Made by a program: the position numbers and the translations under genes. DNA of 64,000 bases. Source: Mytilus trossulus (lineage: Eukaryota). Numbering within the stretch: position 1 is the stretch's first letter; each line of letters opens with the position of its first letter. The stretch is from positions 71,486,001 to 71,550,000 of the forward strand of contig NC_086379.1 of the NCBI RefSeq assembly GCF_036588685.1. Reading direction: 5' to 3'. The notes under the pieces are model-generated. The model had not been told where the DNA came from. It did not search any database and was given only the letters and a program-made list of their open reading frames with translations. This document shows, piece after piece, positions 15,201 to 50,186 of this stretch.

Positions 15201-15352
15201 ATTTGTTTTTTGGATAATAATTCGCATTCAGTGATATCATAATCGAAGAAGCTGATGGGGATAAATCTACTGAAACTGGAAAAATTATCAGACCCCAAAC
15301 AAATATCACAATTAAAAAGTTGAAGGGAGCAGACAACACTATTGCAACATCA

Positions 15353-16070
15353 ATAGACAAACATGCAACACATGGGTAACACAAAGAGACAATCAGACAA
15401 CACAATGGCAACACATATAGACAGACAGACAATACAATAGCAACACAAAAAGACTAACAGACAACACAATGGCAACACAAATAGACAGACTGCCGACACA
15501 ATGGCAACACACATAGACAGACAGACGACACAATGGCAACACAAATAGACAGACAGACGACACAATGGCAACACAAATAGACAGACTGCCGAAACAATGG
15601 CAACACAAATAGACAGACTGCCGACACAATGGCAACATAAATAGACAGACTGCCGACACAATGGCAACACAAATAGACAGACTGCCGACACAATGGCAAC
15701 ATAAATTGACAAACAGACAACACAATGGTAACACAAATATACAAACAGACAACACAAGTCGACAAACAGACAACACAAGTCGACAAACAGACAACACAAT
15801 GGCAACACAAATAGACAGACAGACAACACAATGGCAACACAAAACGACAAACAGACAACACAATGGCAAAACAAATAGACAAATAGACAAAACAATGGCA
15901 ACACAAATAGACAAACAGACAACACAATGGCAACACAAATAGACAAACAGACAACACAATGGCAACACAAATAGACAAACAGACAACACAAATAGACAAA
16001 CAGACAACACAATGGCAACACAAATAGACAGACAGACAACACAATGGCAACGCAAATAGACAAACAGACG
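15353..16070. repeat. 32-bp minisatellite (ACAACACAATGGCAACACAAATAGACAGACAG variants) with 21-bp truncated units
   Basis: Direct tandem array of about 20 or more units, producing spurious Cys/Leu/Val-rich ORFs in all three minus frames. Confidence 0.93.
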
Positions 16071-19000: not shown

Positions 19001-19329
19001 TTTCATATTAGGCATTTTATAATTGACTGTCTAGTTTAAGTATACATATTGTTGAAACCGGCACGATGACCAATAGTTCTTATTTAAGGTGTTGGCTGGT
19101 TGTGCGTTTTCCAACTATAAAACAAGGTTCAATTCACCATTTTATGCATAAGGAAATGCCTGTTCCAAGTCAGGAATATGACAGTTGTTATCCATTCGTT
19201 TGATGTATTTGAGCCTTTAATTTTGACATTTGACTAGGGACTTTCCGTTTTGAATTTTCCTCGGAGTTCAGTATTGTTGTGATTTTACTTTTGCCTATAC
19301 AACATTGATTATATTATATGATACTTATA

Positions 19330-19983
19330 AAATAAAATTGAGAATGGAAATGGGGAATGTGTCAAAGATACAAAAACCCAACCATAGAACAGACAACAGC
19401 AGAAGGTCACAAACAGGTCTTCAATGCAGCGAGAAATTCTCGCACCCGAAGGCGTCATTCAGCTGGCCTCTAAATAGTTCACTTGTTCAGTGATAATGAA
19501 CGCCATACTAAACTCCAAATTGTACACAAGAATTATTTTTTTAAAAAGAATACAAGACTTACAAAGGGTAGAGGCTCTTGACTTCGGACAGGCCCAAAAA
19601 CGCGGCGGGGTTAAACATGTCTATGAGATCTCAAATCTCACCCTATACCTCTAGCCAATGTAGAAAAGTAAACGCATAACAATACGCACATTACCATTCA
19701 GTTCAAGAGAAGTCCGAGTCTGATGACAGAAGATGTAACAAAAAAAAAAGCAAAATGAATGACTATAATACATAAATAACAACAGACTACTGGCAGTTAA
19801 CTGACATACCAGCTCCAGACTTCAGTTACACTGATTGAAAGATTATGTCTTCATCATAAGTATATCAGGCACAATCCTTCCCGTTTGGGGTTTAGTATCT
19901 TGCCATCATAACATATATGAGAAGAACATCACCCGTTTCATGCCAACAACAGGGTTTTTTAAATAAATGTGTTTAGTTCCGAT
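19330..19983 (-). repeat. Inverted copy of the Penelope-like 3' region seen at 14565-15200
   Basis: Clear reverse-complement similarity along its length. Shorter + strand copies at ~20629-20788 and ~62455-62795. Confidence 0.8.
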
Positions 19984-22900
19984 ATAGTTATATATATATA
20001 TATATATATCTTTAAAAAAAACACCTATTATAGCTTTAATGTTACATGTACGAGTAACTGTAACTTGTAAAGTCGTTTCTGCATTAAGTTCTCTTACCAG
20101 AAAACAATAAACAAAAATATGCTTTTGTCGTTTTTCAATTCTTATTAGAAATCTGCATCAGATGACAGCCATTTTATATCTCAAGAAAATTTAATCAAAC
20201 ATACATAAATAAGATAAAGAGACCTAAATGCGTGACTTCGAATCCCAATCAGAACACATAAACGTGCAAATCAAATCATGTTTGCATTTACTGATTGAAA
20301 AATAATAAAACTATGAAACGAACGAACGACATGTTCCTAACCTTTACACCTCAATTTTCATTTTATTTCATTAAATATGTGACTAAAATGAAATCCTAAA
20401 CTTGTATCTTTTATTTTAAGTGCCATTTAGTGTACCATAGATCAGTATGCATACACATATACTATGCACAAGCGATTGAAAAAAGGTAAAATATCTGCGG
20501 TACTCTTGATATTTTACTTAGAGTATTTCTTGTCCAAAATAATTATCTCTTTTACAAAAATTAATGTCGAATATTCGTTAATAAGACGACTATCCAACGG
20601 CATAGAAAAACCAGAAAAAAAATCATTATCACTGTACTAGTATACATATTTTTAAGGAGTCAGCTGAAGGACGCCTACGGATGCGGGAGTTTCTCGTTAC
20701 ATATAAGACCCATTGGTGGCATTCGGCTGTTGTCTGCTCTGGGTTGTTGTCGCTTTGACACATTCCCCATTTCCTTTCTCAATTTTATCAATTAATCAGG
20801 AGTAATCAACAACAATGTTGTTGTACAATATGTACAGCTATAAGCAGGGCTTTTTTTTTACACAAAACTAGTTGCAAATAAATTACCTAAGATCTGACAT
20901 GACCATAAGACTATATTATAGACAGAGATAATAGGATACAAAATTCAACACATATAAAGGTTTTTATCCTATAACAAGACCTGAGTCCAAGGAAACTAGT
21001 GCGCCTTGTGTATCAAATCCTCTATATCTCGATCAGTAATATGTCAAACGGTACAATGATGACCATACGATCAAAACTAGTTCAATGAAACCACTTAACT
21101 CTGTAATATCTGTTTTTAGTTTGTTCCTTTAAAAGCGTGTATTCTGATCATATATCACATCGAATAATTAGATAGACAATGGCCCACGGAGAAAGAAAGA
21201 AATATCAATTTCCAACTATTAACACGGAAAACATCAACTAATGTAGCAATTTAGACAACATTAAGAAATAAAGTCCAATTATAAATGATTAAGTCTCATT
21301 TGAGCAGTTTGTTATTTTAGTAAACATACAAGAAACTAAAAACACGCAATATCAATTATGTTAAAAATCCCTCAAATAGGTAGATCGAATACTAAAAACA
21401 CTTATGGCAACAATCTTACTGCACCAGTTCAGTATTTCAGCAATTTATTTCTCTACAGTAATGCTGGTGGTCAAATGTTTGACATTTAAAATTTAAACCA
21501 AAGGTCGTAGAGCTGTCACGACTGAGGACGAACAATGGAAAAGTTAACGTCAGCGTTATTATGTCTCTGGTGAGGATTATCGTAATGCCAATTATTCCTC
21601 ATCTTATGTTTAAAAAGCAGTGCAAAAAACCAGAGCTATGCATGAGGGAGACACATTCTTGGATTTAAAAATATATCCGTGTTGATAAAATATTTTGATT
21701 TGGGCATTACTGTAGCAATATATGGCATCTAATATCCAACAACTTCGAAATTGGAGATATAGTTTTTTTTAAAAGCGGTTGAAAAATCTGAGTTGCAATT
21801 ATCATAATCTTCTTTCTGGTACAAACAAATAAAACAATGTAGTTAGATTATGCAAAACCACTAAAAGCTTATTAAATGTTTGTATTTATTTCAAATGCTT
21901 TTAAATGATTGTTGAGCATAGATTGTTCCTTTTATATGCATCTGCTATAGCTTCTGAATAAGATTATGTTACTAAAAAGTAATAAAATAATGTAGAACTA
22001 AAGTTGGCCATCATATTTTATTCATGTACATAACTGATTAATATTCTAAAAATAACTCTGTACCATTAACAACAAATAAAAAACAATGTGATAATTTTAA
22101 GTACTCTAGTATTAGAAATAAACAAACAATATTATTCATCTTTTGAACATAAAAGAAAACCGTGAAAAACTCCGACGGTTTATACGAATATGACATATTT
22201 ATCACCTTCACTGAAAATTTGAAGTCCTACGAATCTTTAAAATAGCTAACGCGCATCTGCATACAACACACCAAAGTAGACATTACAATAAACAATCTAT
22301 CATTGTAAGCATAGAAACCACATTTTGATTGCAAAACTGCAAGTAGGTATTAAGAAATTTAGAAACGAGACATACATGTATATGGGTCATAAAGAACAGT
22401 ATTGAATGAACTTTCCAAATAACAAAATGAACATGTATCCTAGGACTTTTTGTTTCTCAATAAAGAAGTTCCATGTAATATGTCTACCATCAATAACAAA
22501 ACTTTGATGGTTTGACTCCGTAAGGAAAGCTATCTAGTGACACAAGTAGCGTATCATGACGGTTGTTATTTAGCAATAGATGTTATTTTTGTTACAGTTA
22601 GTTGTCCACTTAATAAACAAGTTTTCCCAATCGGACTTTAAAGCTGTGGTTACACAAAGGGTATTTATAAGCTATGGAAGCTGAGTCTGGCTTAAGGATA
22701 CAATTGCTTTATAATGGGGGCAATACCAGTTGTACAACAATAGTTGGTTAACATACGCGGGGAGTTAGTGTTAATATGTTATATTTGTCTGATCACACTT
22801 CACCAAGGTTTGTTCCATAGAGCAGTACATATATATTGCAAAGTGGTGCAACAACCCATAACCAGATGTAGGCAGAAAATCGTATTCTATCCTATATGTT

Positions 22901-24496
22901 ATTTTCTTTTACAATGCTTGAAAACATCATTGCAGTAAATTATTAAACTCCTACACATAAAGATCTACAACGGAAAGCGATTAGTCTTGTCTCTTGTCGC
23001 TTAAAAGGTTGATTTAAGACTTGCACATCGTGTTCTGTGTTGTCTGTTTGTAATCCAAAAAAAGCATAAAGAGTTTGTGAAGTCTACGAATAATATTTTT
23101 TTAATTTAAGAAATCAAAAGCAAAAATGTAGTTAACAATTCACACATCTATCAAATGATATATCGTGAATCGTGATTTTATAAATAATACAAATGTCTAA
23201 TGTCACTTATTCTTTAAAGCAAAGTTATGCATTTTACATCAGTGTAGGCAGACTATCATATAGTGGGAAATGTTTATACTTTCAAAAAAAGAAACAAGCA
23301 AATAACTTCTTGTAAATAGGCGAAATGTTTTCACATTATATCCGAAAAATTTCAATTATCGCGGAATTAAAGTATTTTTCAAGGAAAAGATTCCATTGCC
23401 ATAGAAAGTGGTATAACAGAACAACGTTTCAAATAATCAATAAAAATCAGTTTCAATGGTGCGAAAAAACGTAACAAAACATTCAAAGAAATGCCATTGT
23501 CACAAACTTAGGAAGATGTGGTACAAATGTCAATGCGACAACTCTGTATCAGAGACCAAATTAAGTGGAAGTTAATAGCTGCATACATTCTTCAACAATA
23601 AGTAAAACCAATCCTACGCAAGTTATGAATATCATCGAACTGACAAATGGTACACTTAGTTACAGGACTTTGATTAATAATTCGGATGGTTGTTTTAATT
23701 TTGAAACTGTTTTGTTGCAGTAACATTTCTTTAAACTGAAATGAAGAAAATAACAAGTATGACGTCCGCCTTTCTTTCTGCAATTAGTCTTTCTGTCTGA
23801 ATGTCTTTCAAGTTGCGCATGCGCAGGTTACTCCATGGTGATATTAAGTTAATAACCGTTCATCCTTTGTAAATGCGACTAGAAAATACCATGAGTGAAT
23901 ATACTTGTTATGAAAAACAGAGGTTATGAACTCCAGAAATTAGAACTGCAAATCCCCAAATAGGAAATTGAAAATTTGAGAAATAGGGGATTTACATATA
24001 TGGGTCATAGGGGACGGTATTATATTAACCAATTCGGTTCTTTTTATTTCTTTGTTAGAGTAATTTGTCCAGAACAAGACAAATTACAGATCGAACGTGT
24101 ATCCAAGAACTGTCTGTTTCCCAATTTATAGATCCGTTTCATATTTCCACCATACACAACAAAACTGTTATAGGTTTGAGTTCATGGGGATGTCCATTCG
24201 GTGAGACATACTGAAGGGAAGTATTATGACTGTTCAACAATGGAGATGTTATTATTATTTCAGTTAATTGCCTGCAAAATAAACCAGTTTTATCAATCGT
24301 ATTTTATAGCCATAGTCACGCATATAATATCAATGAGCTTACGAACCAGCATGTTGATAAACATTGGGTTAAGGATAGTATTGCTTTAAATTAGTGGAAA
24401 TACATGTTCCTCTTATATTTGATGACATTTTCCTCTTATATGTGTGTTCCTCAGTTTTAATTTGTAACCCGGATTTGTTTTCCCTCAATCGATTTA

Positions 24497-26566
24497 GGTA
24501 GCAATACACAGTTAGGAGTTTAGTTTCGCATTATGGCCCCTGTGGATTTTTCAAATAGGAAAGTTATTGTGTAATAAAATTAATTTTTAGACAGATGAGT
24601 GCTTATTTAGCCTTCAAAGATGGTTAATAAGAGCATCAAGATTATTTTTTACATGTTTTATGGGCTGTTTTCTGTTTGACAGTCCGTATTTTCATAGCTA
24701 GACCGGCCATCGGGCCAGAAATTAATGTACTGTTTACAAACACTCTTTTTCTACATGAAGTTTTTGACGCAATTTTACAAAAAAATGAGATGAAAGACAT
24801 ATGATTTTCATTGGATTTGCTGAATGATATATGTACACAGTTTCAGAAAAGGTATTTCTTCAAGCGATTGAAATTCTACTTTTAGCCAAATTTTTGGGAA
24901 ATATGAGACATCTTTCCCCCCCTTTTTGCAATATTTTATAACAAATTAATGTAGATTGTTGCCATGGATATACCAAAAAGAAATTATATTTTACCATTTT
25001 ATATACTGAAAATAAAATCTATGGAAGATTCTGATTACATACATATGCCCATATATGACACAAACAGTAAGCTTGATATTGCAAGAAAGCAATGAAAAGG
25101 GAATGGTAAAATTCATGAGGGCAAATTTTAGTATTTTTTCCTAACTGTTTATTGCTACCTTATGGCATACTTACCAAGCTCAGAATTGTATAATTTAAGA
25201 CTTTTCATGCCACAAATCTATTGATATTAGATTCAAAATCAACTTCTTAGTAAATTAAGTGTTTAACAATGACAATATGTGTCAATTTTATTGTTTATAG
25301 TCCTTAGCAACCAAAATAAGACATTTTGAAACTAGGCTTATATTTGTACTCTATCGGCTTAACGCTTGCTTCTGATGGATTGGGCTGCATGTAGTAGCCC
25401 AAATATTGAACGCGTTGGTTTTTTTCTTGCGAATATATCAAATTATTGTTTTTTATCAAGATTTCATGTTACATTTTGGCATATAGTAAATGTATAGTTA
25501 AATCAGATGTGAGAAATTGATTCCCTATCACCAAGTTTTTGAATCAAGTCTTTGGTATGCAATAAGCATGAAGATTAACATTTTTATGCTTTAAATTGCT
25601 AAATTTTGTACAATGGTGCATCATCAGAGATCTTATTATGATATTCAACATTAAAAAACTGACAAAAGAGGTACAGTTTTTAAGATTTGGCTAAAAATTG
25701 AGGTAGAGACAAGATTTTATACTTTGACTTGGCACCTTTCTTAAAATCAGTTTTTGTCGCGTTTCAGTGTCAACTGCTAACCTTCATAAAATATTCATTA
25801 CTCAACCAATTTTCAAAAACAAAAGGCCATTTTACTCGGTTTAGCTAGCAGAACTCAGAAAATAAGTTAAAAGGGAGAATTTGAAAAAAATATTTACTAT
25901 TAAGGTAGCAATACACAGTTAGGAGTTTAGTTTCGCATTATGGCCCCTGTGGATTTTTCAAATAGGAAAGTTATTGTGTAATAAAATTAATTTTTAGACA
26001 GATGAGTGCTTATTTAGCCTTCAAAGATGGTTAATAAGAGCATCAAGATTATTTTTTACATGTTTTATGGACTGTTTTCTGTTTGACAGTCCGTATTTTC
26101 ATAGCTAGACCGGCCATCGGGCCAGAAATTAATGTACTGTTTACAAACACTCTTTTTCTACATGAAGTTTTTGACGCAATTTTACAAAAAAATGAGATGA
26201 AAGACATATGATTTTCATTGGATTTGCTGAATGATATATGTACACAGTTTCAGAAAAGGTATTTCTTCAAGCGATTGAAATTCTACTTTTAGCCAAATTT
26301 TTGGGAAATATGAGACATCTTTCCCCCCCTTTTTGCAATATTTTATAACAAATTAATGTAGATTGTTGCCATGGATATACCAAAAAGAAATTATATTTTA
26401 CCATTTTATATACTGAAAATAAAATCTATGGAAGATTCTGATTACATACATATGCCCATATATGACACAAACAGTAAGCTTGATATTGCAAGAAAGCAAT
26501 GAAAAGGGAATGGTAAAATTCATGAGGGCAAATTTTAGTATTTTTTCCTAACTGTTTATTGCTACC
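24497..26566. mobile_element. Non-autonomous composite-type DNA transposon (KolobokP-like): two 663-bp direct repeats flanking a 744-bp non-coding interior
   Basis: 24497-25159 and 25904-26566 are near identical (one mismatch seen). Each has TIRs GGTAGCAATA...TATTGCTACC. Flanks are TTA/TTAA-like. The whole unit interrupts another repeat (GATTTA^TGAC). Confidence 0.8.
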
Positions 26567-27206
26567 TTATGACTTTCAAAAAGCGGTATACTACTTTTGC
26601 CATTATCTATAACCATATTTGTTTGATATTCTCATAGATTTAGTGTTCGAATGATATATTTTGTCACAATTAACCAAGGTATCAAAAAGTAAAATCACCA
26701 AATAAAACTGAACTCCAAGGTAAGTTCATAAGAGAAAGTCCGTAATCAAAGGCAAAATCAAAAGCTAAAACACGTCAAACCGATGGACAACAACTGTCAT
26801 ATCCTGAGGCATTTTCTGATGTCGAATATGATGGATTGCACCTCGTTTTATAGCTAACTAAACCTCTGTGATTTTTTGAATAGTTGAAGTCTCAAAATAA
26901 TATTTCTTTAATTTAAGAAATCCAAAGAACACATTTAGTTAACATTTTACACCTTTATCAATTAATATATCGTGAATCGTAATTTTATAAATAGGACAAA
27001 TGTCTAATGTCACTTCGTCTTGAAAACAACGCGACGCATTTGTCATCAGCATGATTAGTGTGGGCAGACTATCATATATTGGAAAATATTCATACGTAGC
27101 ATAAATAAAACACAGTAGAATGTTCACACACCCTTTACCACTAGATAGAAAAGCAATTGAACAACATATTAAATGTAGCAAACAAACAAAAAACGGTAAA
27201 CAGCAA

Positions 27207-27608
27207 AACAAAAAAATAAGTAATGGCTGCTTTCTTCGAACATTCACATTTTCAGTGTGGTTGGGTTTAACTTGTTAGCTGGTATCCAAGCCTGCCCATA
27301 ATATGAGACAGTGGAGTAACACCACAACATAACAACGAACATAACTTCCGTTCACATCCTGTACAAGCACCGTGTCAAATTTAAAAAGACTTTCAACTTA
27401 TACTGTAACAAAAAATAAATTATGGCTGCTTTCTTCGAACATTCACATTTTCAGTGTGGTTGGGTTTAACTTGTTAGCGGGTATCCAAGCCTGCCCATAA
27501 TATGAGACAGTTGAGTAACACCACAACATAACAACGAAAATAACTTCCGTTCACATCCTGTACAAGCACCGTGTCAAATTTGAAAAGACTTTCAACTTAT
27601 ACTGTAAC
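27207..27608. repeat. Recent ~199-bp tandem duplication
   Basis: ATGGCTGCTTTCTTCGAACATTC...CAACTTATACTGTAAC occurs twice with only a few substitutions. Confidence 0.9.
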
Positions 27609-29576
27609 TTTTTTTGGCCATGACTATTCAATGTAATGTTTCCTGTTTCGATCTGTTATTTATTGACAAAAAGTAAAATCACAAAAGTACTGAACTCAAT
27701 TCAAAACGGAAAGTCCCTAAACAAATGTCAAAATCAAAAGTACAAAAACATCAAACGAATGAAAAGCAACTGTCATATTCCTGACCTGTTACAGGCATTT
27801 TCTTATGAAGAAAATGTTGGATTAAACTTGGTTTTATAGTGCTAAACCGCTTAGTTGCACGACAGTCGCATCAAATTCCCTAATATTGAAAACGAAACCC
27901 ATATTATTTTTTTTCCAATGAGACAGCAAAATGTTCTTTACGAAAGAAAAAAAGGAAATCACAATCACTAAGTGGATGAAACCCATAATTCTATTATGTT
28001 GGCTTATGACCATAAGTGAAGACAAAACTGCACGGACAGTTTAGTACATATAAATGCGCATAGAAATATTAAATCTTTTCAATAATTTTAAAATAAGGAA
28101 GTGAGGTATGATTGTCAGGCAATAATTTTCCAACAGAGAACAAATAACATATATGCTAGCAAGTATATATAGTAACCATGTGACATGAAACAATTCGAAA
28201 ATGCATAGGCCTGACTCATTCTCCCCATTCAGGAGAAAACAATAGTACATAAAGTTAAAATTGTAAAAAAATATAATCAAAAGGCTAGACTCATCTGATA
28301 AAGTACTCATTTCGTACATTATAAAAATACTGATTGGCTCCTTACTTTCCTGTAACGAGTTTATGTTTAATAATCTACCCTCTTTTCATATCGTTGACCA
28401 TAAATAAATCTGTATAACTTTTATAGATAATGATTCGGTATTCTAAGTTTATGACTAAGCGTGATAATTGCAAAGGAAGTCACATTTGTTGTACTTTTTT
28501 GTAATTTCCTATTATTACTTTAAAGTCCAATAAATGTTCGTGCTATACATATGATATGTGTACTTTGAAATTCGTGTAAACAGTGTCCCTTGACTGATTT
28601 TGTTTATGCTATTTACCTATAAGAAACAATATGAGGGATGGTCAGAAGTTTTATTTTTTATTCGGTTTTATTCTTATTTTCCATCTTAATATTTCCATAA
28701 TAATAGCATTCAGTGAGTTACATTGTAATACTTAATCTAATTATAAGTACTTCAAGTCATTTATCATAATAGCTAAATGTAATTCGAAATTATCAATGCT
28801 TGCATCAATTAAGTTGTCATTCAAAATTATGTCCATTAAAGAAAACTAAAAACAACTTAAGAACGTTTGTTTTTTTACTGAAATTCAATACACCATTTTT
28901 TTTTTCATTTTTAACCTCTTTTTATTCAGGAAAAATGGGCATTTTAAACGGTGAAGTTTGACTGACAGCAACTGTGCAATAGCTTCGGCGCCGCTCAAAT
29001 AAATTAAATGCTTTTCAAATTGAAAGATTTAAAAATCGCGATGAATTTGAATTCATGTTTTAAGACTTTTCCCGTTCACGAGTTACGCTTTTGATAGATT
29101 AAAAACGACAATCATATTATTTCTGTGGACAACATATGGATGTTTCAGCTGTTCGTTCGGCCAATGTTTTTTAAACATTTTATGTTGTAACTGGTGACAA
29201 AATGGATGTTAGATATTTGCTAGTTTTACCATTACCGTGTCGGACCTATATTGATAGACTGTAAAATAGGCAAAGAACGTGACAGACATGAACGCACCAT
29301 ACATTTATATGATACAGCAATGTCATTCCCATTTATCTATCTTCTTTGAAAGACCACTAATTATTAATTTCAAAACACAGAAAACCCGATTTGGTGTCAA
29401 TTTTATATCAAGACTTAACAATTTATATGGATTGAAAGCTCACGGCTTAACGGCTATTTAAGTTCATGAATGTATCTCTGTATTTAAAGCTAGTTTTTTT
29501 AAACAAAATCGATGAATACAAAGTTTCCAATATGAAGCTTTCAATAAGTTTGAAATCATATTTAAAAATGTGTATT

Positions 29577-29940
29577 AATAAAATTAACGGTACCAATTTT
29601 CTTGCACCAGATGCGCATTTCGACAATACATGTCTCGTCAGTGATGCTCGTGGCCAAAAAAAATGAAATCCAAAGCTTATTTAAAAGATGAAGAGCTATA
29701 TTCCAAAAGGTCCAAAAGTATAGCCAAATCCGTGAAAGGAATCAGAGCTTTGCATGAGGGAGATACATTCCTTAATTTATAATAATTTATAATATTTTGT
29801 AACAGCAAATTTTAATAACACAAAAAAATTGTATTTTCATGCCAGTACCGAAGTACTAGCTACTGGGCTGGTGATACCCTCGGGGACTTATAGTCCACCA
29901 GCAGAGGCATCAACGCAGTGGTAGGAATAAAATTAACGGT
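29577..29940 (-). mobile_element. Complete retrozyme-like monomer (~349-nt unit plus 15-nt terminal redundancy)
   Basis: AATAAAATTAACGGT repeated at 29577 and 29926. Contains the hammerhead. Flanked by AAAAATGTGTATT and AAAAATCCGTATT (11/13 match). Absent from the paralogous sequence near 35780. Confidence 0.8.
29604..29647 (-). ncRNA. Minimal type I hammerhead ribozyme (second subfamily)
   Basis: Minus strand GCATCA-CTGACGA-GACA(tgtat)TGTC-GAAA-TGCGCA-TC-TGGTGC. Confidence 0.87.
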
Positions 29941-31329
29941 AAAAATCCGTATTGTTGAAATAAGTATTTATTATAAAAACATTTAAATGAGCATACTAAT
30001 AGGTTTTACTTTTTACTGTTTTTGTAAGTGATAGTTTTTACCCAAAGAGATTCAACGACTAATATATACCAATAATAATCTAGTTGAAAAAAGAAATAAT
30101 ACATTTAGTCAGATAGGTTCAATTCTGAAACCAAAGTTTATTATTTTTATACTTATATTACTTGATGAATTGAGACAATCATGTCAGACAATTGATCTTT
30201 TTCAACTTGTTCTTATTATGATGAGTTGTATTATATAGTTATCTTGGTTCCATTTATAGCAATTGAAGGCCTAAACAGCACAACCGTTTTATTGACGCCT
30301 ACGCAGTTTTTCACATCAATAGTTTTCCTACAGAATGAGCAAGTAATAGTTATCAAAGGTACCAGGATTATAATTTAGTATAAATAACAAGTAATCTTGT
30401 CGCAAGAAGTGTATTATTTTTCTTTTTACGTTTTTGTTTAAAATTGATAATACCTCATTAATAAATATATTATCATTTGTACGTCTACTTTTAATTGATG
30501 CTAACGATATTTGTATCGTCGTTAAATATCACAAACAAAGAAATGAAAATGACTCAGTTAATCAAATTAAAAGATCGAAACACCGAGAAAACCCAAAGAA
30601 CAGATTAGTTTCTCGACTTGTAATGAAAAATTATTAAAAGTTTAAGTATGAATAGTGACACTTTAAAAAACAATATGTATTCCATCTTAGTTATATTTCC
30701 AAATTATTGTAATAATTAAGTCCTATTGTCCGGTTCGTCCTCCTTTTTAAAATCATTTTTTATAAACACAATTTTCATTATTATAAATTAAAGCAAACAG
30801 CTATTCAAATATGTGTCACCTAGGCCACCGGTTTGGAAACATTCAAGTAACGATTGAATTTTTAATAATAGGGAAGACAAACTGTAACGATACTAATCGT
30901 AAAGGTTTAAACTGTTGTATGAGAAAAAAAATATAAGCACGTGCAATACACACAAAACTACTTGTATACGACAATTGAGAAATATGCCATAACAAAATAT
31001 GAGAAAGAGGTTACTAAAACATTATGGTTTGGTTGATGTTTTAGAGGTCTCTCTTCAATACCACTTTTGATCCATATAGAATTCTAACGGTATAATCTAT
31101 AAAAAGGACTTTGATTAATCATTACACTTCGGATGGTTGTTTTAAATGAAACTATTTTGATTGAGTAGCATTCATTTAAAATGAAATAAAGAAAAAACAA
31201 GCATGACATTCGAGCTCTTTTATACATAGATTTACCTTAGCTGTATTTGGCTACACTTTTAGGAATTTTGGTTCTTAATGCTCTTCAACATCGTACTTTA
31301 TTTGGCCTTTTTAACTTTTTAGGATTCGA

Positions 31330-31371
31330 GCGTCACTGATGAGTCTTTTGTAGACGAAACGCGTCTGGCGT
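31330..31371 (+). ncRNA. Hammerhead ribozyme with shortened stem III (retrozyme fragment ~31225-31410)
   Basis: GCGTCA-CTGATGA-GTCT(tttgt)AGAC-GAAA-CGCG-TC-TGGCGT. Confidence 0.75.
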
Positions 31372-31479
31372 ATATACTAAATTTAGTCCTGGTATCTATG
31401 ATGAGTTAATTTATACAACAATCACTCATTTCTGCCTTTTAAGCAGATTGCGCGGGTTACTCTATGGTAATATTATAAG

Positions 31480-31821: not shown

Positions 31822-34800
31822 ATAAAATAACCTGTCGAAGAACTATTACAGCAAAATTGGAAGCAATAGGTTACACATGGAGCCAAGCCTTGTTCATGGC
31901 TAATGACTGAGAGAAGTGGAAGCAGTTTGGTGTGGCTGATTTTTTATGTCGCTTTTTAGTAATTTATATGCATTAATTGGTTTAGTCCAAAGAGTTAAGG
32001 AAGCATTGCTTTATATTCAGGGAAATGCCTGTTATAAAACCATATATGGTGAACATTTGTGGGGATTTAGTGTTTGTATGTTTATTCCTGTCAAATTCAT
32101 GAATTGGCACAATATATATATTGCAAAGTGGTACAACAACCCATAAGATAAGCAGATTTAGGCAGAAAATCTGAACTATGCTATTTTGAAATATGTTTGG
32201 AATTTTGGATAAATACCTGCATCTATTTAGTGTTTGTATGTTATTTCTTATAACAATTAACCCAGGTTTGTTTCACAGTTGAAAAAGTAAAATAACAAAA
32301 ATACTGAACTACGAGAAAAATTCAAAACGGAAAGTCCCTAATCAAATGGTAAAATCAAAGGATAAAACACATCAAAGAAATGTACAACAACTGTCAAATA
32401 ACTGACTTGGTACAGGTATTTTCTTATGTAGAAAATGGTGAATTTAATCTGGTTTTAATAATTTTAAACCTCTCAATTGTATGACAGTCGCACCACTCCA
32501 TTATATTGACAACAAATCCCATGTTGTTGTTTTTTCAATGAGACAGCAACATTTTCTAAACGAAAGAAAAAAAAGCATTCACTAATTGTAACCATCATAA
32601 GCCCACATAATTGAACTATACGTAAATTTTGGATGAAACATAATTCAGTTACATTGGCCTATATTAAACATAAACGAAGACCAAACTGCACGGACATGTT
32701 AGTATATGTAAATACAAAAATATGTTTGAGACGCATAGAAATTTTAAATCTTTTCAATGAGGTCAATATAAGGACAAGTGGTATGATAGTCAATGCGATA
32801 AGTTTCCACAAGATAAAAAAATCACATTCATGCTAGCAAATATATATAGTTACAGTGTGGTATGAATCAATTCAAACGAGAAATTAAAAGGCCTGCCTGA
32901 TTCACAGGCACTTATCTTTGATTATGTTTCTATACAACTGAAACTAACACTATTGAGGTATATAAGGGGACGATCAGAGACAACCGCATATGTGGATTAA
33001 TTATAAAACAATTGACATTTAGATGCTGACGATTTCTGATTTACAGGCACCAACAAAAAGGGGCGTGGCTAAACATGTAGGTGATGGCTCATTCCTCTCC
33101 GGAGACAACAGTAGTACATAAAGTTCAAACTGTAAAAACAGTAATCAAAAAGCTAGACTCATCTTATAAAGTACTCGTTTCGTACATTTTAAAAAAAGAC
33201 TGATTTGCTTCTTTCTTTCCTGTAAAGTGTTTATGTTTGTTTATCTACCTTCTTTTCATAGCATTGACCATAAACAAATCTGTATAACTGTTATAGATAA
33301 TTATACAGTATTCTAGGTTTATGATCAAGCGTGATAATTGCAAATGAAGTCATATTTATTGTACTTATTTAATCCTAATTATCAATGCTTAAATGATTTA
33401 AGTTGTCAGTCAAAATGATTTCCATTTAACAAACACTCAAAACAACTAAAGAACGCAATTGTTTTGCTGAAAGTCAATACACCATTATTTTTTTCATTAT
33501 TATTAACATGTTGTTCTGCAGGAAAAATGAGATTTTTTAATGGTGAAGTTTGAGTGACAGCAACTGTGCAATAACTTCAGCCACGCTTAAATAAATCAAA
33601 TGCTTTTCAAATTTAAAGAAGTGAAAATCGCGATGAAGTTTGAATACATGATTTTTACACTTTTGCTGTTCAAGAGTTATGTTTTTGATAGCTAGATTAA
33701 ACACGGCAATTAATATTGTTTCTGTGAACAACCTATGAACTGTTCAGTCAATGCTTTTTAAATCTTTCTATGTTGTAACTGTTGACAAGATTCACGTCAA
33801 ATATTTGCTAGTTTTACATTAACCGTTTCAAACATATCAAATAGACACAGGACGTGGCAGACATAACGGCGACATATATTATGCTACAGAAATGTCATTC
33901 CTACTAGCTGTCTTCTTCAAAAATTCGTCAAGGGTTTATACCTTCAACCCGGTTTGCTGTCAGTTTGACAGCTCATTCCTTGTCTTCTATGGAATATTTT
34001 CCAAAGAGTAAATTTTATATTAAAACTAGTGAAATTAATATGGTTTCGTAATTCACGTGTTCCGGCTAATTCAGATCAAGAATGCTTCTCTGCAAAAAAA
34101 AAAAGAAATAAATACAAAATGTTTAACATTTACTTTCTGTTAAATTTAAAATGATCACATATAAATCTGAAATAATTTTTCATCTAAAAAATAATAATGA
34201 CAGAAGCAGATGTTTTACTTTAAATCGTGTAGGTATGTATTTGACATTTATTACCAACAGAGATTTTATCACAAAGTAATATCCATTATAATTACATTGT
34301 AAAATACAAATAATGCATCCCATCAAATAAGTATAATTCTAAAATCATAATTTTATTCGTTGTTTCTTTATAAAATCAAATACCAGATTTTATATTTTTA
34401 TATTTCATAGTGATAAATAGTAAACTGAGACATTCATGTCAGTTAATCAACCTTTTTCAACTAGTATTATTATAGTTAGTTGTTTTTTATATTTATCTTG
34501 GTTCCAGTTGTTGTCAGTGGACACGACATCCACGTAACCGTTATTATTTACTCCTACGCATTGTCATACCGATGGTTTTCCTACAGAATGACTTAAACGT
34601 AATCAAAAGGTAATTTTGTCGCAAGAAGTGTATAATTTTTATGTTTAAGTTTAGAAGTTACAATACCACATAAATCGATATATTGTTGAAGATCTGACAA
34701 AACAACAGACGACAGAAAATAAAAGTGTAACGTCTGCGTCATTATGTCTCTAGGAAGGCTTATCGTATTGCCAATTATGCCTCTTCTTGTGTTTAAAATA

Positions 34801-36926
34801 ACGAGCAAGGAACCAGAGATCATTCTATAATTTAAAACTTAATATGTGTAAATACAATATTTTGATTTTGGCATTCCTGTAGAAATGGTATGGTGTCTAG
34901 TTTCGATTAACTTCGGAATCGAAGTTTGTGTAAAAAGCAGTTAAAAAATCTGAGTTCTAGAATCAGAATATTCTTACTGGTTCAAAGAGTAGTATAAGTA
35001 TTCTATAAACTTAAGTTTGCCGCCATATATTTTTTAATGTAAGTGACATGAAGTTGAAGTATCCATGATGTTCTAGTACTGTAATTACCCTTTACCATTA
35101 ATAACCAATAAAAAATAATATGTGATAATTTCAAGCATACAAAATCCAAAAAAAATAATAAACTAACACACAGTTTGAACATAAAAAACCCAATCAGACG
35201 GTTTAAATAAAATGGAAGATTTATCGCCTTCAAACTGACAAAACTTGGAATCAAACGAATCTGAAGAATAACTAACAGGCACCTGTCTATAACTTTAATT
35301 GATTAAATTTTGATACAGTACCATTCATTTAAATTGATGCGAAGAAGAATGGTAAGCTAACAGGGTCGAATATCTGTTTTATAATCATATTTAGTGAACA
35401 TACTCGGGGATTAAGCGTTGAAAGGTTATCTCTTATCACAGTTGACCAAGGATTAGCCCACAGAGCAAAGTAGTACAACAACTCAAAATCATATTTAGGC
35501 AGAAAATCTTTACTACAGTGTGTTATTTTTTTTCAAATTCTTGAAAAATACAACTGCCCTTAATTATAAAATGCCTACTCATGAATACATCATATACACA
35601 GGCAAAATTTTTTCAGTTTAGCATATTGTTAGAGATAACATTAGGCACACACTGTCTCTGTTATATTCACTGTAATGCCTCATCTTAAGTAGTGATATGT
35701 TTAGTTTTTAACTTTTTTTAAACAAAAAAGAATAATACAAAATATCCAATATAAAGCTTTCAATACATTTGAAATCACATGTAAAAATATATATTATAAA
35801 TTGTTGAAATAGTTATTTATCATAAGAATATAAAGGACAGAAGTAATTTTTTTGCTTTGTATTGTGTATGTAAGGATAGAGATTTAACAACAAAGTAATA
35901 TATACATATCTCTAATTCAATTGAAAATAAAAAATATTGCATCCCATCAAATAAGTTCAATTCTAAAACCATAAGTTTATTCTTTGTAAATATATCATAT
36001 ACTAGACCGAATAATCTGGTTCTTCGTGTTTATTTTTATTATTTTATATTTCCTATTTATCATTTGGATTTTTTTTTAACCGTGTCAAAAAAAAATATCA
36101 AAGGTCAAAATTAGTAAAATAAGATATAGGAAGGGTGAAATATGGACACAGGCGACAGAAAATTTGGTCTGATCATATATAATATGGTATCATTATATTG
36201 TCTCTTTGACACATTCATCATTTCCATTTTGCCGTAGACTCTAAACATATTGATTTAAAATCTACTATTTTTTTTAGCCCGTTATCTATTGGGTATACAA
36301 ACTTGAATATCTTAATTTGGATAGTTAGCAGATTAGTTGTTCACTGTTTGGTATTTAACATTTGTGTTGGTTATTTTGATCGGAACCTTGCTTTGGTCGT
36401 TTTGAAATACGACATTGAGGTTGCAGACGACAAAAAATAAACGAGAAATGAATCTTCGTAACAGCTATACATCCAATAAAAATGTGTGATTCAATTTTCT
36501 TGAAATTTTAAATTTTGGTCAACAGGTCAAAGTAATTACTTTATAAAAATATGTTAAAAATTAAACGAGCCAAATGAATTATTGCTGAATTGTGGGATAC
36601 TTCCCTAAGTAGGATTGTCAGTTTTCCTGCCGAGGGTGTGTGAGCCTCTTCAGGCTTCCATCATCGTTAACAATGGACAGCCTCGATGTATCCATTAGAA
36701 CGGAAAGAGCAAGCAGGCGTTAATCATCGACAATCAATTAGCCAATCAATTAACTACTCATACCTTTATCCGTAAAATTAAAATTGTTTATCCTTAAGTT
36801 GCTTTATAACTATAATCAAATAAATACAATTGAAAATGGAAATGGGGAATGTCTCAACGACCCGACCAACAAGAGCAGTAAAAAGTCCTATGTTCATAGC
36901 TTGGCAAGGGGATCAAAATTATTTTA

Positions 36927-37643
36927 ATGGTCGAACAATATAAATCTGACATGGCTGTCATTGCCGATGATATAACTTCATTGCATGTTGTTAACAGGAG
37001 TATGGTTGATCAGCTTGAACAACTACAATGTGAAAACTTGAGGGACAATTTGATGTTTTTTGGTATCGAGGAGAAGGAGGGCGAAGACTGTATTGATAGC
37101 ATTAGAAACATATGTGCTTTATCTCTGGAAATTCGAGAACCAATCGAAATAGCATCTGCCTTTAGGATGGGAAAGAAATTCATGAGCAAGTCGACTCGGA
37201 ATGTGCGTAAGCCGCGCCCCATAATTGTCAAATTTATAAAACGTCAACAAAGGGACACTGTACGTCAAAACTCTCGCAAATTAAAAGAGTCAACCATTTC
37301 AATTTCTGAACAATTTCCGAAAGCTATACATGAAAAACGCAAACTATTATTTCCTGTGTATAAAAAAGCAAAGGAGGCAGGTAAACGAGTTTCGTTTAAT
37401 AAAGATAAACTTTTTATTGATGGTGAGCAGACTGTTGTTAAATCTAACGAGCTAGTCAAAATTGCACGTCGTGATCAGTCAGGTGATAGAATGTCGGATA
37501 CAGCGTCGGGTCCAGGGTTTTCAGTGGCCGAAAAAACACCGAGCGTCTCAAGTATAAAACCTAGTAAATCTTCAGTGAGTAATGGCTCGTCTAGTGGATC
37601 TCGCTTTGAAGTGTTAGCAGATATGCACACAGGTACAGACTAG
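36927..37643 (+). CDS. LINE ORF1 (coiled coil plus RRM-like, Transposase_22-type)
   Basis: Motifs LRDNLMFFGIEE, AFRMGK, PRPIIVKF, ISISEQFP, RVSFNKDKLFIDG. Confidence 0.85.
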   Translation: MVEQYKSDMAVIADDITSLHVVNRSMVDQLEQLQCENLRDNLMFFGIEEKEGEDCIDSIRNICALSLEIREPIEIASAFRMGKKFMSKSTRNVRKPRPIIVKFIKRQQRDTVRQNSRKLKESTISISEQFPKAIHEKRKLLFPVYKKAKEAGKRVSFNKDKLFIDGEQTVVKSNELVKIARRDQSGDRMSDTASGPGFSVAEKTPSVSSIKPSKSSVSNGSSSGSRFEVLADMHTGTD

Positions 37644-37676
37644 GACACATCGAGAAGCATCTCCTTTATTAACTTT

Positions 37677-40600
37677 TTGTATTGGAACATTAATGGTGGT
37701 TTACATGATAAACTTAATGAGCCAAATTTTTTATCTTACATTAAAACATATGATATTGTTATTTTGTCTGAGTGTTGGATTGATAAGTCATTTGATGATA
37801 TTGTAGATGGTTATATTTGTAAGCCAGTCCCATTACTAAAAAGTAAATATAAACAAGGTGGTGGACTATATTTGTTAATAAAAAAATGTTTTGCAAAGTA
37901 TGTTGAAGTAGTTGATATTCAGAATGATACAATTATATGGCTCAAGGTTTCAAAGAATATATCAACTTGTGGGTTTGATTATTTTATTGGATGTGTGTAT
38001 TTGCCTCCTGCCTATTCAAATTATTATAAGATGTATAATTGTGATTTATTCTATGATTTGTTAAATTCTGTTGAAAAATATTCATCAGAAACGTCAAGAG
38101 TATTTTTACTAGGTGATATGAATGCAAGAACTGCTATAGTTAATGATTTTATAATAAATGACAATGTATGTGGCCCAATTTTTGATAGTTTCAACCATAT
38201 TTTTGGGTATTTAAGTGACACAAATCTACCAGTAAGAAGAAATCCAGATCAAAGTACTAATGAGTTTGGATTAAAATTGTTAAATCTGTGTAGAAGCACT
38301 GGTCTACGTATTTTGAACGGTCGGCATAAGGATGGCTTAGCTAATGACTATACATTTTGTGGTTCCCGGGGAATGAGTGTTGTAGACTACTTATTGGCTC
38401 CATATGACTTTTTACACATTATAGACCAGTTTATTGTTTGTAACTTCACTTCTTTTAGTGACCATGCGCCTTTACATGTTCGCTTGCGGTGCATATTGAA
38501 CGATTCACAAGAGCCTAAGCGTAACAGTGGTACGTCAAACAACTCATATGATAGTTACCGATGGAAGGAAGAGCTAAAAGATCAGTGTTATGAGTCTTTA
38601 ACTTTAAACAGTGGTTCACTTAGCCAGATAGTATTTTCTGATATTGAAAAATCCCAAGATGGTATTGACAATTACGTTGAATCGTTTACTTCTAATTTGA
38701 TGAACATTATTTCACCATTCTTTTGTAATTCACATAGTTCAAATAATATTTGTGACCGTACCCGTAGTAAAACGACCCGATATAAAGATGACAAACCATG
38801 GTTTAACTACGAGTGCAAAAGACTTCGATCTATCTATACTAGTTCTTTGTATACATTTAATAGAGACAAAAATGTTGAAAATCATCAAATATTAATTATG
38901 TCTAAAAGACAATACAAGCGTTTAGAAAATAAACTAAAACGAAAATATAAGCGTCAAGAGGGTGATATGATAGCTACATTGCGTAAAATCGACCCAAAGA
39001 AATATTATAAACTTTTTCAAAAGAAGAGAGCCAAAAATTCTGATGTGTCACTTTCTGAATTCTTCGAACATTTTAGAAATTTGGTCACAAATGATGGTAT
39101 TAATGTGACAGTCGAAACTCCAGAGACCGTTTCCGACACAACATATGATGAACTTGATCAAATTATTACACAAGATGAAATTTTGAAGTGTATTTCAAAC
39201 CTAAAACGTGGCAAAAGTCATGGTATTGATGGTACATTTAACGAGTTATTCATTGAATTTAAGGATATTCTGCTACCGTTCCTAGAGGAAATATTCAACA
39301 AGATATTAGCATCAGGACATTTTCCGAAATCTTGGGCACTCGCAGTGTTAATTCCTGTTTTTAAAAAAGGCGACTCGTCCGATCCATCGAACTATCGTGG
39401 AATCAGTTTAGTCAGTAATTTAGCGAAACTATTTACATCTATTATAAATTCAAGACTAATTAAATGGTCTGAGAATAATGATATTATTACAGATGCGCAA
39501 TTTGGATTTCGCCCGGGTAGCAGCACTGTTGATGCAATTTATTCTTTGTTGACACTCGTTCAGAAAGCACTTTTCAAGAAAAAACGTTTATATTGCTGTT
39601 TCGTTGACTACAAACAGGCATTTGACTCTGTAACCAGACTTAACTTATGGTTATAACTATCAAGAGTTGGTATAACAGGCAAATTACTTTCTGTTTTAAA
39701 ATCAATGTATTCTACAGTAAAAGTATGTGTGAAAGTTGATGGTTTTTATTCTGAGCAGTTTACAAGTTCAGTTGGTCTTATGCAAGGGGAAGTTCTTTCT
39801 CCTATACTTTTTTCGTTATATGTAAATGACTTTGAAATGGAATTTCTACGTAATAGTAATATACCATATGAAGTGCAAGACTTGTCATTATTTTTACTTA
39901 TGTATGCTGATGATATGATTTTATTTTCTGATTCAGTTATTGGCTTGCAAGATATGTTAGACACATTATTATTATATACTTGTAAATGGGGTTTGACTGT
40001 AAACATTGCCAAAACAAAAATTATGGTATTTAGAAACGGAGGTTTTGTAAAAGACGAAGAAATTTGGTATTATGATGGCAATGCTATTGACATAGTGGAT
40101 GAATTTTGTTACCTTGGTGTACTGTTAAATTTTAACGGTAAATTTGTTAAAGCTCAAAAACATTTAGCTGAGCAAAGTAGAAAAGCTGTTTTTGGTTTGA
40201 AGTCGAAGGTTTCGTCATTGTATTTGAATGTTTTTACATATTTGAATTTATTTGATACTTACATTAGCAGTATTTTATGTTATGGTTGTGAAATATGGGG
40301 CTTCCATAAAGCTCCAAATATTGAAAAAATACAACTTGATTGTTGCAAAAACATATTAGGTGTCAAACAATGTACAACAAATGTTATGGTTTATTTTGAA
40401 TTGGGTAGATATCCTTTGATATATTTTAGAATGTACAACATAGTGAAGTACTGGTTCAAATTATTATCCACAAGCAATTGTATTCTTAAAAACTGCTACA
40501 GGGAACAACTGTATAATTTCTGTAATATTAGAAGCAGTTGGATTTATCAACTACAACAATTATTATTTAACTTGGGTTTAAATGAGATCTGGTATAACCA

Positions 40601-41096
40601 AGACAATTTGATTATTGATACAAATTTATTATTATTTGTAAAAACAAGGATATATGATCAAGCAAAACAGACTTTGAATGATCAACTGAACGTTTCATCT
40701 AAGTGTTATTTATATAAATATATTGTCAATAATGTATGTTTACAGAATTATCTAACTAAACATATGAATTTTAGAGTGTATTTAACTCGCCTTAGATTGT
40801 CATCTCATAATTTGTTTGTTGAAGTAGGCCGTTATCATGGAGTAAATAGGTTTGATAGAAAATGTACTCTTTGTAATTTGAATATCACTGAAGATGAATT
40901 CCATTTTGTTTTACAATGTGAAAGCTATAGAGACTTAAGGAGACAGTTTATTAAACCTTATTATTATAGACGTCCATCGTCGTTCAAATTAGTGCAACTT
41001 CTCAGCACTGAAAATGTAAAAGATTTGCGTAATTTGTGTAAATTCTTGTTTAATGCACATAATCATAGGACCAAACTGTTATTGGTCAATACTTGA
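37677..41096 (+). pseudogene. LINE ORF2 (AP endonuclease plus RT) with one in-frame nonsense codon at 39654-39656
   Basis: EN motifs WNING, LSECW, GDMNAR, SVVDY, SDHAP. RT motifs YRGISL, QFGFR, FVDYKQAFD, GLMQGEVLSP, YADD. C-terminal CTLC...EDEFHFVLQC. The two track ORFs are in the same frame (LWL*LSRVG). Confidence 0.92.
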
Positions 41097-42477: not shown

Positions 42478-42822
42478 TATAGTAATCTAAGGTAACAGGA
42501 TGATAATTTTGTACGCCAGACGCGCGTTTCGTCCACATAAGACTAATCAGTGACGCTCATATCAAAATATTTATAAAGCCAAACAAGTACGAAATTGAAG
42601 AGCATAAAAAGTGTTTCCAAATACGGCAAAGGAAATATGTTCCTCTGATGAATAAATCCTTAGTTCTTTGAAAATTCGAAGTTTTGTAAACAGGAAATTT
42701 ACAAAAATGACCACATAATTGATATTCATGTCAACACCGAAGTGCTGACTTCTGGGCTGGTGCTACCCTCGGGGACTAAACGTCCAACAGCAGTGGCATC
42801 GACCCAGTGGTGTCAATAGTTA
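42478..42822 (-). mobile_element. Retrozyme-like monomer with core-mutated hammerhead (42513-42556)
   Basis: Homologous to 29577-29940 and 1335-1583. The core reads CTGATTA instead of CTGATGA. Confidence 0.75.

Positions 42823-50149: not shown

Positions 50150-50186
<37 letters not shown>

What the first reader, a model, noticed from the sequence alone, without database searches (positions are those of the whole stretch)
29564..29953. Complete hammerhead-bearing retrozyme monomer with terminal redundancy, TSD and an empty paralogous site
Seen: a non-coding 364-bp insert made of one 349-nt unit plus 15 nt repeated from its start, carrying an intact minimal type I hammerhead on the minus strand. 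It is flanked by an 11/13 target duplication and is missing from the duplicated region near 35780. Known: non-LTR retrozymes are non-autonomous retroelements that make small circular RNAs by hammerhead cleavage, and they have been reported in mussels. Inference: slightly more than one unit, starting away from the cleavage site, is what reverse transcription around a circular RNA would leave. Penelope-like elements, abundant here, are candidate mobilisers.
Basis: partly seen in the sequence, partly recalled or inferred. Interest (0 to 1): 0.75.

Follow-up and report, generated by a model that had tools for sequence, protein, structure and literature searches.

The report
Mussel retrozyme carrying Naiad start signal
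This is one stranded copy of a small ribozyme-bearing mobile RNA, likely the kind already described in mussels, and it carries a folded sequence also found at the start of Naiad jumping genes right beside the point where the related copies examined begin, which likely identifies the enzyme that spreads it and suggests that it is copied from an RNA circle.

Summary
The insert is real: a 349-nt unit (29577-29925) plus 15-16 nt repeated from its start, with an intact type I hammerhead on the minus strand. It fits the published mussel non-LTR retrozyme, so the element itself is known. Three details need correcting. The hammerhead has canonical (6/4/2 bp), not 'minimal', architecture. The right-hand 'TSD' 13-mer matches an internal element sequence 13/13 but the left flank only 11/13, so it may be element-derived. 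The paralogous site has 7 extra bases. The start point is not arbitrary: 13 of 15 copies scanned begin at the same place, 33-49 nt 3' of the cleavage site, while the other end varies. New: in RNA sense, the 66 nt directly after that start match the conserved 5' end of Naiad Penelope-like elements (an 11-mer found 11 times in a published consensus file, each time at a Naiad 5' end; controls 0-1). Naiad remnants lie in the window. Best model (0.62): Naiad RT/endonuclease binds this motif and primes just upstream; a cleaved linear monomer offers only 33 nt of template, so a circle (or uncleaved multimer) is needed. Cleavage, circles and binding are untested.

The parts
29577..29925 (-). One retrozyme unit, 349 nt, GC 37%; RNA sense is the minus strand
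   Evidence: 331 of 349 bases match the first unit of L005; 26,990 contigs of run X1 lay on the 1.5-kb stretch, with summed depth above 1 million over the unit against mostly 30-125 on the flanks (not a copy number)
29926..29941 (-). Exact 16-nt repeat of the unit start (second pass round the unit)
   Evidence: offset 349; D1
29604..29647 (-). Type I hammerhead, canonical architecture, predicted cleavage between 29610 and 29609
   Evidence: sequence, motif scan, covariation over 11 homologues; no Rfam hit; cleavage untested
29577..29609 (-). 33 nt between the cleavage site and the fixed copy start (the only template a cleaved linear monomer would offer)
29860..29925 (-). Naiad-like 5' structured motif; begins exactly at the unit boundary
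   Evidence: (supplement of PMC8557442), controls, chance in window, fold z -3.09 for 29836-29930; no Rfam family
29841..29860 (-). 8-bp hairpin with UUCG loop, kept with compensatory changes in the family-2 copy at 42.7 kb
   Evidence: folds of three sequences, pairs read by eye
29564..29576 (+). Left 13-mer: target DNA, predicted primer end for reverse transcription
   Evidence: matches the paralogue 35783-35795 at 11 of 13 (read)
29941..29953 (+). Right 13-mer: decayed TSD or element-derived patch; equals the family's internal sequence 13/13
29823..29835 (+). Internal site homologous to both 13-mers; this copy has three private changes at 29828-29830
   Evidence: I8
35783..35802 (+). Paralogous site without the insert: one 13-mer plus 7 extra bases
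42479..42818 (-). Full-length family-2 copy (65% identical over 324 columns), same start point, same Naiad-like motif, hammerhead core G8 changed to U

Best explanation
This is a solo, about 5%-decayed copy of a hammerhead retrozyme that was likely written into AT-rich DNA by the reverse transcriptase-endonuclease of a Naiad Penelope-like element, which is predicted to bind the structured motif that the retrozyme shares with Naiad 5' ends, to start copying just 5' of it, and to have used a circular RNA as its likely template. Steps: (1) [published for the mussel family, not tested here] tandem source copies are transcribed, cut by the hammerhead and ligated into ~350-nt circles. (2) [inferred] Naiad protein recognises the 66-nt motif on the circle. 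(3) [shown: fixed copy start; inferred: priming] it nicks the target and primes at the base just 5' of the motif, 33 nt 3' of the cleavage/ligation site. (4) [inferred] RT crosses that site and runs on for a variable length: 36 to 473 nt in the 10 copies with both ends. Here it ran one unit plus 16 nt. (5) [inferred, about 0.6] the cDNA end was joined to the target through an internal 13-mer that resembled the target at 11 of 13 bases; a plain TSD with two later substitutions is the alternative (about 0.35). With one cleavage site this copy is a dead end; copies longer than about 420 nt (L005, 473 nt, two hammerheads) would be able to found new circles. Component odds: retrozyme family 0.92, target-primed RT by a PLE 0.85, Naiad specifically 0.75, circle rather than uncleaved multimer 0.7.
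For: Fixed start, variable other end: 13 of 15 copies scanned (6 of 8 in the window, 7 of 7 fetched loci) begin at the homologous point, 33 nt (family 1), 39-40 nt (family 2) or 42-49 nt (family 3) from the cleavage site. In public runs 124 contigs of X2 stop matching at 29576 with unlike AT-rich flanks (agreement 0.39), and 350+597, 212+363 and 234+331 contigs of X1, X2, X3 do so at 30344/30345 for family 2; 32 and 27 contigs at 29572 continue into the unit's end, i.e. head-to-tail junctions (only the best-supported rows are listed, 1475 not shown). TSDs of 8-9 bp in 3 of 10 copies with both ends, against 2 of 90 mismatched pairs (right ends set by eye). Naiad motif: the 11-mer CTGCTGGTGGA occurs 11 times in the 584,217-character supplement of PMC8557442, all at the 5' start of a Naiad consensus (one directly after its pLTR), from bivalves, hemichordates and a fish; CCCCGAG follows it in all 10 hits that fall in the Naiad file, one of them Naiad_Olur-position text where the 11-mer is split by a line break. 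Five other 11-mers of the unit gave 1, 0, 1, 0, 0 and the reverse complement 0. The two-part motif occurs once in the window, in this insert; 0 of 100 shuffles. By-eye ungapped comparison of L005 with Naiad-1_Pfla: 50 of 66 identical, 46 of 66 for this copy, with two compensatory pairs in the outer stem and most differences in a hairpin loop. The motif has the same orientation as the hammerhead and the Naiad ORF, and in Naiad_Pmar and the oyster consensus with a pLTR it begins a few bases after the element's 3' end, the same geometry as here. Three Naiad-type RT remnants lie in the window (14084-14575, 43335-43667, 50186-51317); all 8 homologues of 500 aa or more carry DKA and lack a C-terminal GIY-YIG-like motif by a regex test, the Naiad marks in PMC8557442. 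Precedent: a Poseidon PLE protein initiates RT internally at fixed sites in vitro and nicks AT-rich DNA (PMC11167929). In mussel, circles are the main RNA form and the monomer self-cleaves at about 0.1/min (PMC7229834).
Against: Nothing here shows binding, cleavage or circles. RNA run X23 holds contigs of the family and none of the unique flanks, which cannot show strand, circle or this locus. The Naiad comparison is by exact-word look-up and by eye, not a computed alignment; the exact 11-mer is in 11 of about 53 Naiad consensi, so it is not clade-wide. No Naiad 5' end was found in the window or loci or in viral contigs. In the Poseidon assay uncleaved RNA was the main template and hammerhead mutants still inserted, which favours a linear multimer. 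Identity with the deposited Mytilus galloprovincialis circles could not be checked (supplement unreadable). 7 of 10 copies show no clear TSD. The whole-circle fold is not much more stable than shuffles (z -1.64; L005 -2.08), and the isolated hammerhead fold (-3.7) is not the minimum-energy one (-10.0).
Confidence: 0.62

Rival explanations
1. Same Naiad machinery and fixed start, but the template is an uncleaved linear multimer transcribed from a tandem array; circles are a by-product.
For: Head-to-tail junctions exist in DNA (29572 rows; L005). In vitro the Poseidon protein used unprocessed RNA and did not need hammerhead cleavage (PMC11167929). The DNA product is the same as from a circle.
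Against: In mussel tissues linear forms were under 5% (up to 10-25% in other extracts) of retrozyme RNA and the monomer cleaves co-transcriptionally (PMC7229834). Hammerhead helices are kept by compensatory change across subfamilies.
Confidence: 0.22
2. The Naiad-like segment is a relic of origin or an internal promoter, and mobilisation is by another RT (a hammerhead-bearing Poseidon/Neptune PLE or a LINE); the insert may be a gutted PLE end.
For: The motif sits in the 5' UTR of Naiads, where PLE internal promoters lie (PMC8557442). Xenopus retrozymes resemble pLTRs of PLEs (preprint 10.64898/2026.07.22.740005). A near-intact APE-type LINE is in the window.
Against: The motif is kept in two subfamilies only 65% alike, with stems intact, and lies flush with the fixed copy start. 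No poly(A) or LINE-like 3' end is seen. Naiads lack canonical hammerheads, so the unit is not a simple deletion product of one.
Confidence: 0.11
3. A DNA-level repeat (satellite excision and reinsertion, rolling-circle or MITE-type) with an incidental hammerhead.
For: Tandem arrays exist; the 2026 preprint invokes unequal crossing-over for local array growth.
Against: One fixed end with truncation at the other in a consistent polarity, 8-9-bp TSDs in 3 of 10 copies, no terminal inverted repeat among the 12 pairs found, conserved RNA folds on one strand.
Confidence: 0.05

Closest known systems
Non-LTR retrozymes of Mytilus galloprovincialis (Cervera & de la Pena 2020, PMC7229834; read: parts 1-4 of 6 of the main text, supplement not readable)
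   Same: Type I hammerhead in a ~350-nt low-GC unit; more than one related hammerhead subfamily; PLEs proposed as mobilisers.
   Different: The text read describes neither copy boundaries, a fixed start, nor a Naiad-derived motif; this is a solo copy with one cleavage site. Sequence identity with their clones was not testable.
Naiad Penelope-like elements (Craig et al. 2021, PMC8557442; read: abstract, sections 6, 7, 15, 20, passages, supplement parts 1 and 22 and word look-ups)
   Same: Shared 5'-terminal motif in the same orientation; fixed 3' end with 5' truncation; partial tandems.
   Different: No ORF; carries a canonical hammerhead, which Naiads lack. The sections and passages read do not mention the conserved 5' motif, though it is in their consensus file.
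Retrozymes as non-autonomous PLE derivatives (Li, Clavereau, Pollet 2026, 10.64898/2026.07.22.740005; read: parts 1-3 of 5, supplements closed)
   Same: General claim that retrozymes derive from and use PLEs; solo monomers as dead offspring.
   Different: Homology shown for Xenopus pLTRs; no molluscs (0 occurrences of Mytilus, mussel, bivalv-, mollus-), Naiad seen only in a coral, no cis signal or start site identified.
Poseidon PAc internal initiation (Frangieh et al. 2024, PMC11167929; read: parts 1-2 of 4)
   Same: RT starts at fixed internal RNA sites near a hammerhead; AT-rich targets.
   Different: Autonomous element of another PLE clade; start sites lie in an AC-rich stem-loop inside the ORF; two starts give a 30-40-bp tail.

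Membership tests
Non-LTR retrozyme | Canonical type I hammerhead in each unit | tested here: met
   definition
Non-LTR retrozyme | Unit of 150-450 bp, GC under 50%, no coding capacity | tested here: met
   349 nt, GC 0.372; ATG ORFs of 66 and 39 aa only
Non-LTR retrozyme | High-copy family with head-to-tail repeats | tested here: met
   (depth, 29572 rows, go-back joints), L005 1.35-mer; this copy itself is solo
Non-LTR retrozyme | TSD longer than 4 bp when present | tested here: inconclusive
   ambiguous here; 8-9 bp in 3 of 10 related copies
Non-LTR retrozyme | Self-cleavage and accumulation as circular RNA | not testable with these tools
   only contigs were available; X23 shows presence of the family
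Mytilus galloprovincialis retrozyme (published clones) | Sequence identity with the deposited circRNAs | not testable with these tools
   supplement too large; host inferred from mollusc-labelled holders, unit size, and recall that the repeat resembles Mytilus DNA
PLE minimal hammerhead (min-HHR) | Long helix II (7-8 bp), short helix I, helix III reduced to the core | tested here: not met
   helices 6/4/2 bp
Naiad (autonomous) | ORF with N-terminal GIY-YIG and C-terminal RT; no canonical hammerhead | tested here: not met
   so not a Naiad itself
Non-autonomous partner of Naiad | Shares terminal cis sequence with Naiad | tested here: met
   comparison by word look-up and by eye
Non-autonomous partner of Naiad | Fixed 3' end with 5' truncation | tested here: met
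Non-autonomous partner of Naiad | Naiad elements in the same genome | tested here: met
   three RT remnants; an intact copy was not seen
Non-autonomous partner of Naiad | 30-40-bp tail, inverted 5' copy, (TA)n target bias | tested here: inconclusive
   none at this copy; Mytilus Naiads have no listed target bias; a 36-38-nt stub at 30345 is tail-sized
Non-autonomous partner of Naiad | Mobilised by Naiad protein | not testable with these tools
   needs in vitro TPRT
MITE / TIR element | Terminal inverted repeats | tested here: not met
   no pair joins the two ends of the insert; ends are direct repeats

The most novel reading that the evidence does not exclude
Mussel retrozymes are minimal circular parasites of Naiad elements, built from a Naiad 5' RNA module plus a separately acquired hammerhead. 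The module, conserved from bivalves to hemichordates and fish, is the Naiad RT's binding and start-positioning element: it sits downstream of the start site and sets the template boundary, as telomerase RNA does for the related TERT (analogy from my own knowledge). A unit-length RNA can then be copied only after circularisation, which explains why the ribozyme is kept, and would give a ~70-nt tag that makes any RNA circle a substrate for genomic insertion.
Probability: 0.4. Interest if true: 0.8.

Novelty: new variant of a known kind. Interest (0 to 1): 0.58.

Why it matters
The mobiliser of animal retrozymes and the RNA signals used by Penelope-like RTs are open questions in the papers read (PMC7229834 names PLEs only as candidates; PMC8557442 calls for an in vitro system). 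This insert supplies a named partner clade, a 66-nt candidate signal, a predicted start base, and a geometric reason why a circle is needed. All are testable with one protein and a 350-nt RNA. It also points to a conserved RNA structure at Naiad 5' ends that Rfam lacks. I did not find the link in print in searches (open-access library only; supplements of PMC7229834 and of the 2026 preprint could not be seen and may bear on this). The element as such is a known kind, which caps the score.

Tried and rejected
Whole genome: none held, so no genome-wide map of ends. Rfam: no hit for this hammerhead or for the motif. Pattern scans of viral and prokaryotic collections for the element or the Naiad-like 3' end: none. 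Four viral loci with the two-part motif are chance matches in GC-rich phage coding DNA with no similarity to the unit: rejected. No Naiad locus in viral contigs. A second link, TGGTAYC lying 12-15 nt before the fixed end in retrozymes and in a Naiad-like 3'-end repeat (7 of 12 window hits), stays a weak lead: the exact end is not in the published consensi, and its assignment to Naiad is by eye from oyster consensus ends. Pfam and the protein atlas did not recognise the 14060 fragment; the assignment rests; one search compared non-overlapping RT parts and is uninformative. The first pair count misplaced the fourth pair of helix II and was redone. No twister hit by Rfam in the Naiad 3' UTR at 14560-15260. 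Look-ups of earlier findings by sequence and place gave nothing. Crossover of a DNA circle at the 13-mer was considered and rejected: it would permute the unit to begin near position 260, and it begins at position 1. A computed alignment with published Naiad consensi was left out, so identity figures are by eye.
Full report
Observation. The insert is as described in outline. An exact 16-nt direct repeat lies at 29577-29592 and 29926-29941, 349 nt apart. A region near 35.7 kb aligns with both flanks and lacks the part between. On the minus strand 29604-29647 reads as a type I hammerhead with complete core, helix I of 6 bp (one G-U), helix II of 4 bp and helix III of 2 bp capped by GCGC; cleavage is predicted between 29610 and 29609. 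Rfam misses it but finds a relative at 1506-1549. Over 11 homologues from the window and from seven metagenome contigs, 96.9% of cells pair and 4 of 12 pairs change on both sides; these changes mostly mark one subfamily split. By the definition in PMC4209133 (passages) this is the canonical, not the minimal, form. The junctions are not assembly artefacts: a contig of run X1 crosses the right one without a difference, and a contig of run X3, under another organism label, crosses the left one.

Family. Unit size, GC of 37%, several related hammerhead subfamilies and mollusc-labelled holders fit the mussel non-LTR retrozyme of PMC7229834, whose ~350-390-bp repeats give abundant circles. I could not compare sequences with their clones. 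The copy is 331 of 349 identical to the first unit of L005. A profile finds eight copies in the window, in three subfamilies about 60-88% alike, plus a stub at 30345.

The start is fixed. Thirteen of 15 copies scanned begin at the homologous point, 33, 39-40 or 42-49 nt on the 3' side of the cleavage site in RNA sense; two decayed window copies were not recognised and the one at 21.4 kb was not scanned. Flanks were judged non-element by eye. The other end varies: 36, 91, 140, 154, 193, 199, 233, 348, 365 and 473 nt. Public contigs agree: 124 in X2 lose their match at 29576 with unlike flanks, and hundreds in each of three DNA runs do so at 30344/30345 for family 2 (part of these continue into a preceding unit), while 32 and 27 contigs at 29572 run on into the unit's end (lists are cut to the best-supported rows). 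Three of 10 copies have 8-9-bp repeats across their junctions, against 2 of 90 mismatched pairs. This is the polarity of target-primed reverse transcription: the left end here is where cDNA starts. A cleaved linear monomer has only 33 nt between that point and its 5' end, so every longer copy was read across the cleavage site, from a circle or from an uncleaved multimer. This argument is inference, but it is stronger than the 15-nt redundancy.

A Naiad motif beside the start. In RNA sense the unit boundary is followed at once by 66 nt (29925 down to 29860) in a stretch that folds well (z -3.09, 2 of 200 shuffles) and is kept in family 2. While checking another lead in the supplement of PMC8557442 I saw that Naiad_Mgal begins with a similar stretch. 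The 11-mer CTGCTGGTGGA occurs 11 times in that file, each at the 5' start of a Naiad consensus (CGi, Sglo, Tgra, Pmar after its pLTR, Mcor, Mgal, Bpla, 1_Skow, 1_Pfla, 2_Pfla, Cmel), none in Chlamys or Hydra. All 10 CCCCGAG hits in the Naiad file follow the motif; the other 8 are scattered in GC-rich Chlamys. Naiad_Mphi has a one-base variant. Five control 11-mers gave 0-1 hits and the reverse complement none; the two-part motif is found once in the window and in 0 of 100 shuffles. By eye, L005 and the hemichordate Naiad-1_Pfla agree at 50 of 66 ungapped positions (this copy 46), with two compensatory pairs in the outer stem and four differences in a five-base loop. About 53 Naiad families are listed, so the exact word marks a subset. 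Where a consensus includes a pLTR, the motif starts a few bases after the 3' end of the upstream unit, the same geometry as in the retrozyme. Naiad-type RT remnants occur at 14084-14575, 43335-43667 and 50186-51317; their long homologues carry DKA (8 of 8) and, in two, the CxC motif. Naiads lack canonical hammerheads, so the retrozyme looks like a hybrid, not a trimmed pLTR.

Mechanism. Most likely (0.62 overall): arrays give circles; Naiad protein binds the motif, nicks AT-rich DNA, primes at the boundary and runs round the circle until it stops. Internal initiation at fixed sites is shown in vitro for a Poseidon element (PMC11167929), but in that work uncleaved RNA was the main template, which keeps the linear-multimer rival at about 0.22. 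This copy has one cleavage site and cannot release a monomer; L005 has two, 350 nt apart.

The right junction. The right 13-mer is 11/13 like the left flank but 13/13 like the element's internal position 248-260 in L005 and in the family majority. The paralogue sides with the left version at one of the two differing positions. For a plain TSD, both later substitutions would have to reproduce the element's bases: about 2-4 in 10,000, against 0.5-0.7 that a patch copied from the element is still exact (the prior for such a jump is my guess). I put a homology-guided jump or a later internal deletion at about 0.6, a plain TSD at 0.35, unrelated filler at 0.05. In either leading case the target was a single 13-mer: the paralogue near 34150 has that spacing in one alignment, the one at 35.8 kb has 7 bases more, which could be a local duplication. 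Unexplained: this copy's three private bases at 29828-29830 create an 11-nt inverted match to 29594-29604, next to the jump point.

What is known. The element class and its occurrence in mussels are published; a 2026 preprint argues from Xenopus that retrozymes derive from PLE terminal repeats, without molluscs or a cis signal. I did not find the Naiad motif, the fixed start or their link in searches; unseen supplements may hold boundary information. Verdict: observation partly confirmed, known family, with a new and testable mobiliser signal; interest 0.58.

Noticed in passing
window 30345-30381: 36-38-nt stub of the family-2 start with an 8-bp repeat across its ends; it stops about 4 nt short of the cleavage site, as run-off from a cleaved linear monomer would (single case).
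   Followed up: partly
window 1351-1583 (element - ), 10892-11090, 31222-31414, 42479-42818, 4342-4468, 17033-17101, 21390-21670: Further retrozyme copies of families 2 and 3; 1506-1549 is an Rfam Hammerhead_1 hit; the 42.5-kb copy has core G8 changed to U; the 11-kb copy has lost most of helix II; the 31-kb copy has a helix III shorter by one pair.
   Followed up: yes
window 487-569, 2578-2690, 10563-10697, 18687-18839, 52700-52872: 5'-truncated repeat with a fixed T-rich 3' end, by eye like oyster Naiad 3' ends; shares TGGTAYC 15 nt before its end with retrozyme ends.
   Followed up: partly
window 14084-15210, 43335-43667, 50186-51317: Naiad-type RT remnants; the first runs into a 3' UTR repeated at 19329-19983, 20624-20786 and 62460-62797. 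Earlier notes report twister-like folds in Naiad 3' ends; Rfam gave no twister hit here.
   Followed up: partly
window 36900-41096 +: Near-intact LINE with ORF1 and an endonuclease-RT ORF2 that is interrupted by one in-frame stop.
   Followed up: no
window 44488-49368 -: Element with overlapping gag-like, RT/RNase H and long third ORFs and split terminal repeats (44148-44479, 49567-49717), DIRS-like by recall.
   Followed up: no
window 26638-30471 vs 32225-34684 and 35380-35988: Old non-coding tandem duplication (69-86% identity) that supplies the paralogous sites; no ORF in its best-conserved block.
   Followed up: partly
window 24492-25164 vs 25899-26571; 27211-27608; 15330-16069: A 673-bp near-identical direct repeat (99.7%), a 199-bp dimer and a 32-bp minisatellite.
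   Followed up: no
L005:320-793 (oriented): 1.35-unit family-1 copy with two hammerheads 350 nt apart, i.e. a potential source of circles; begins at the same fixed point.
   Followed up: yes
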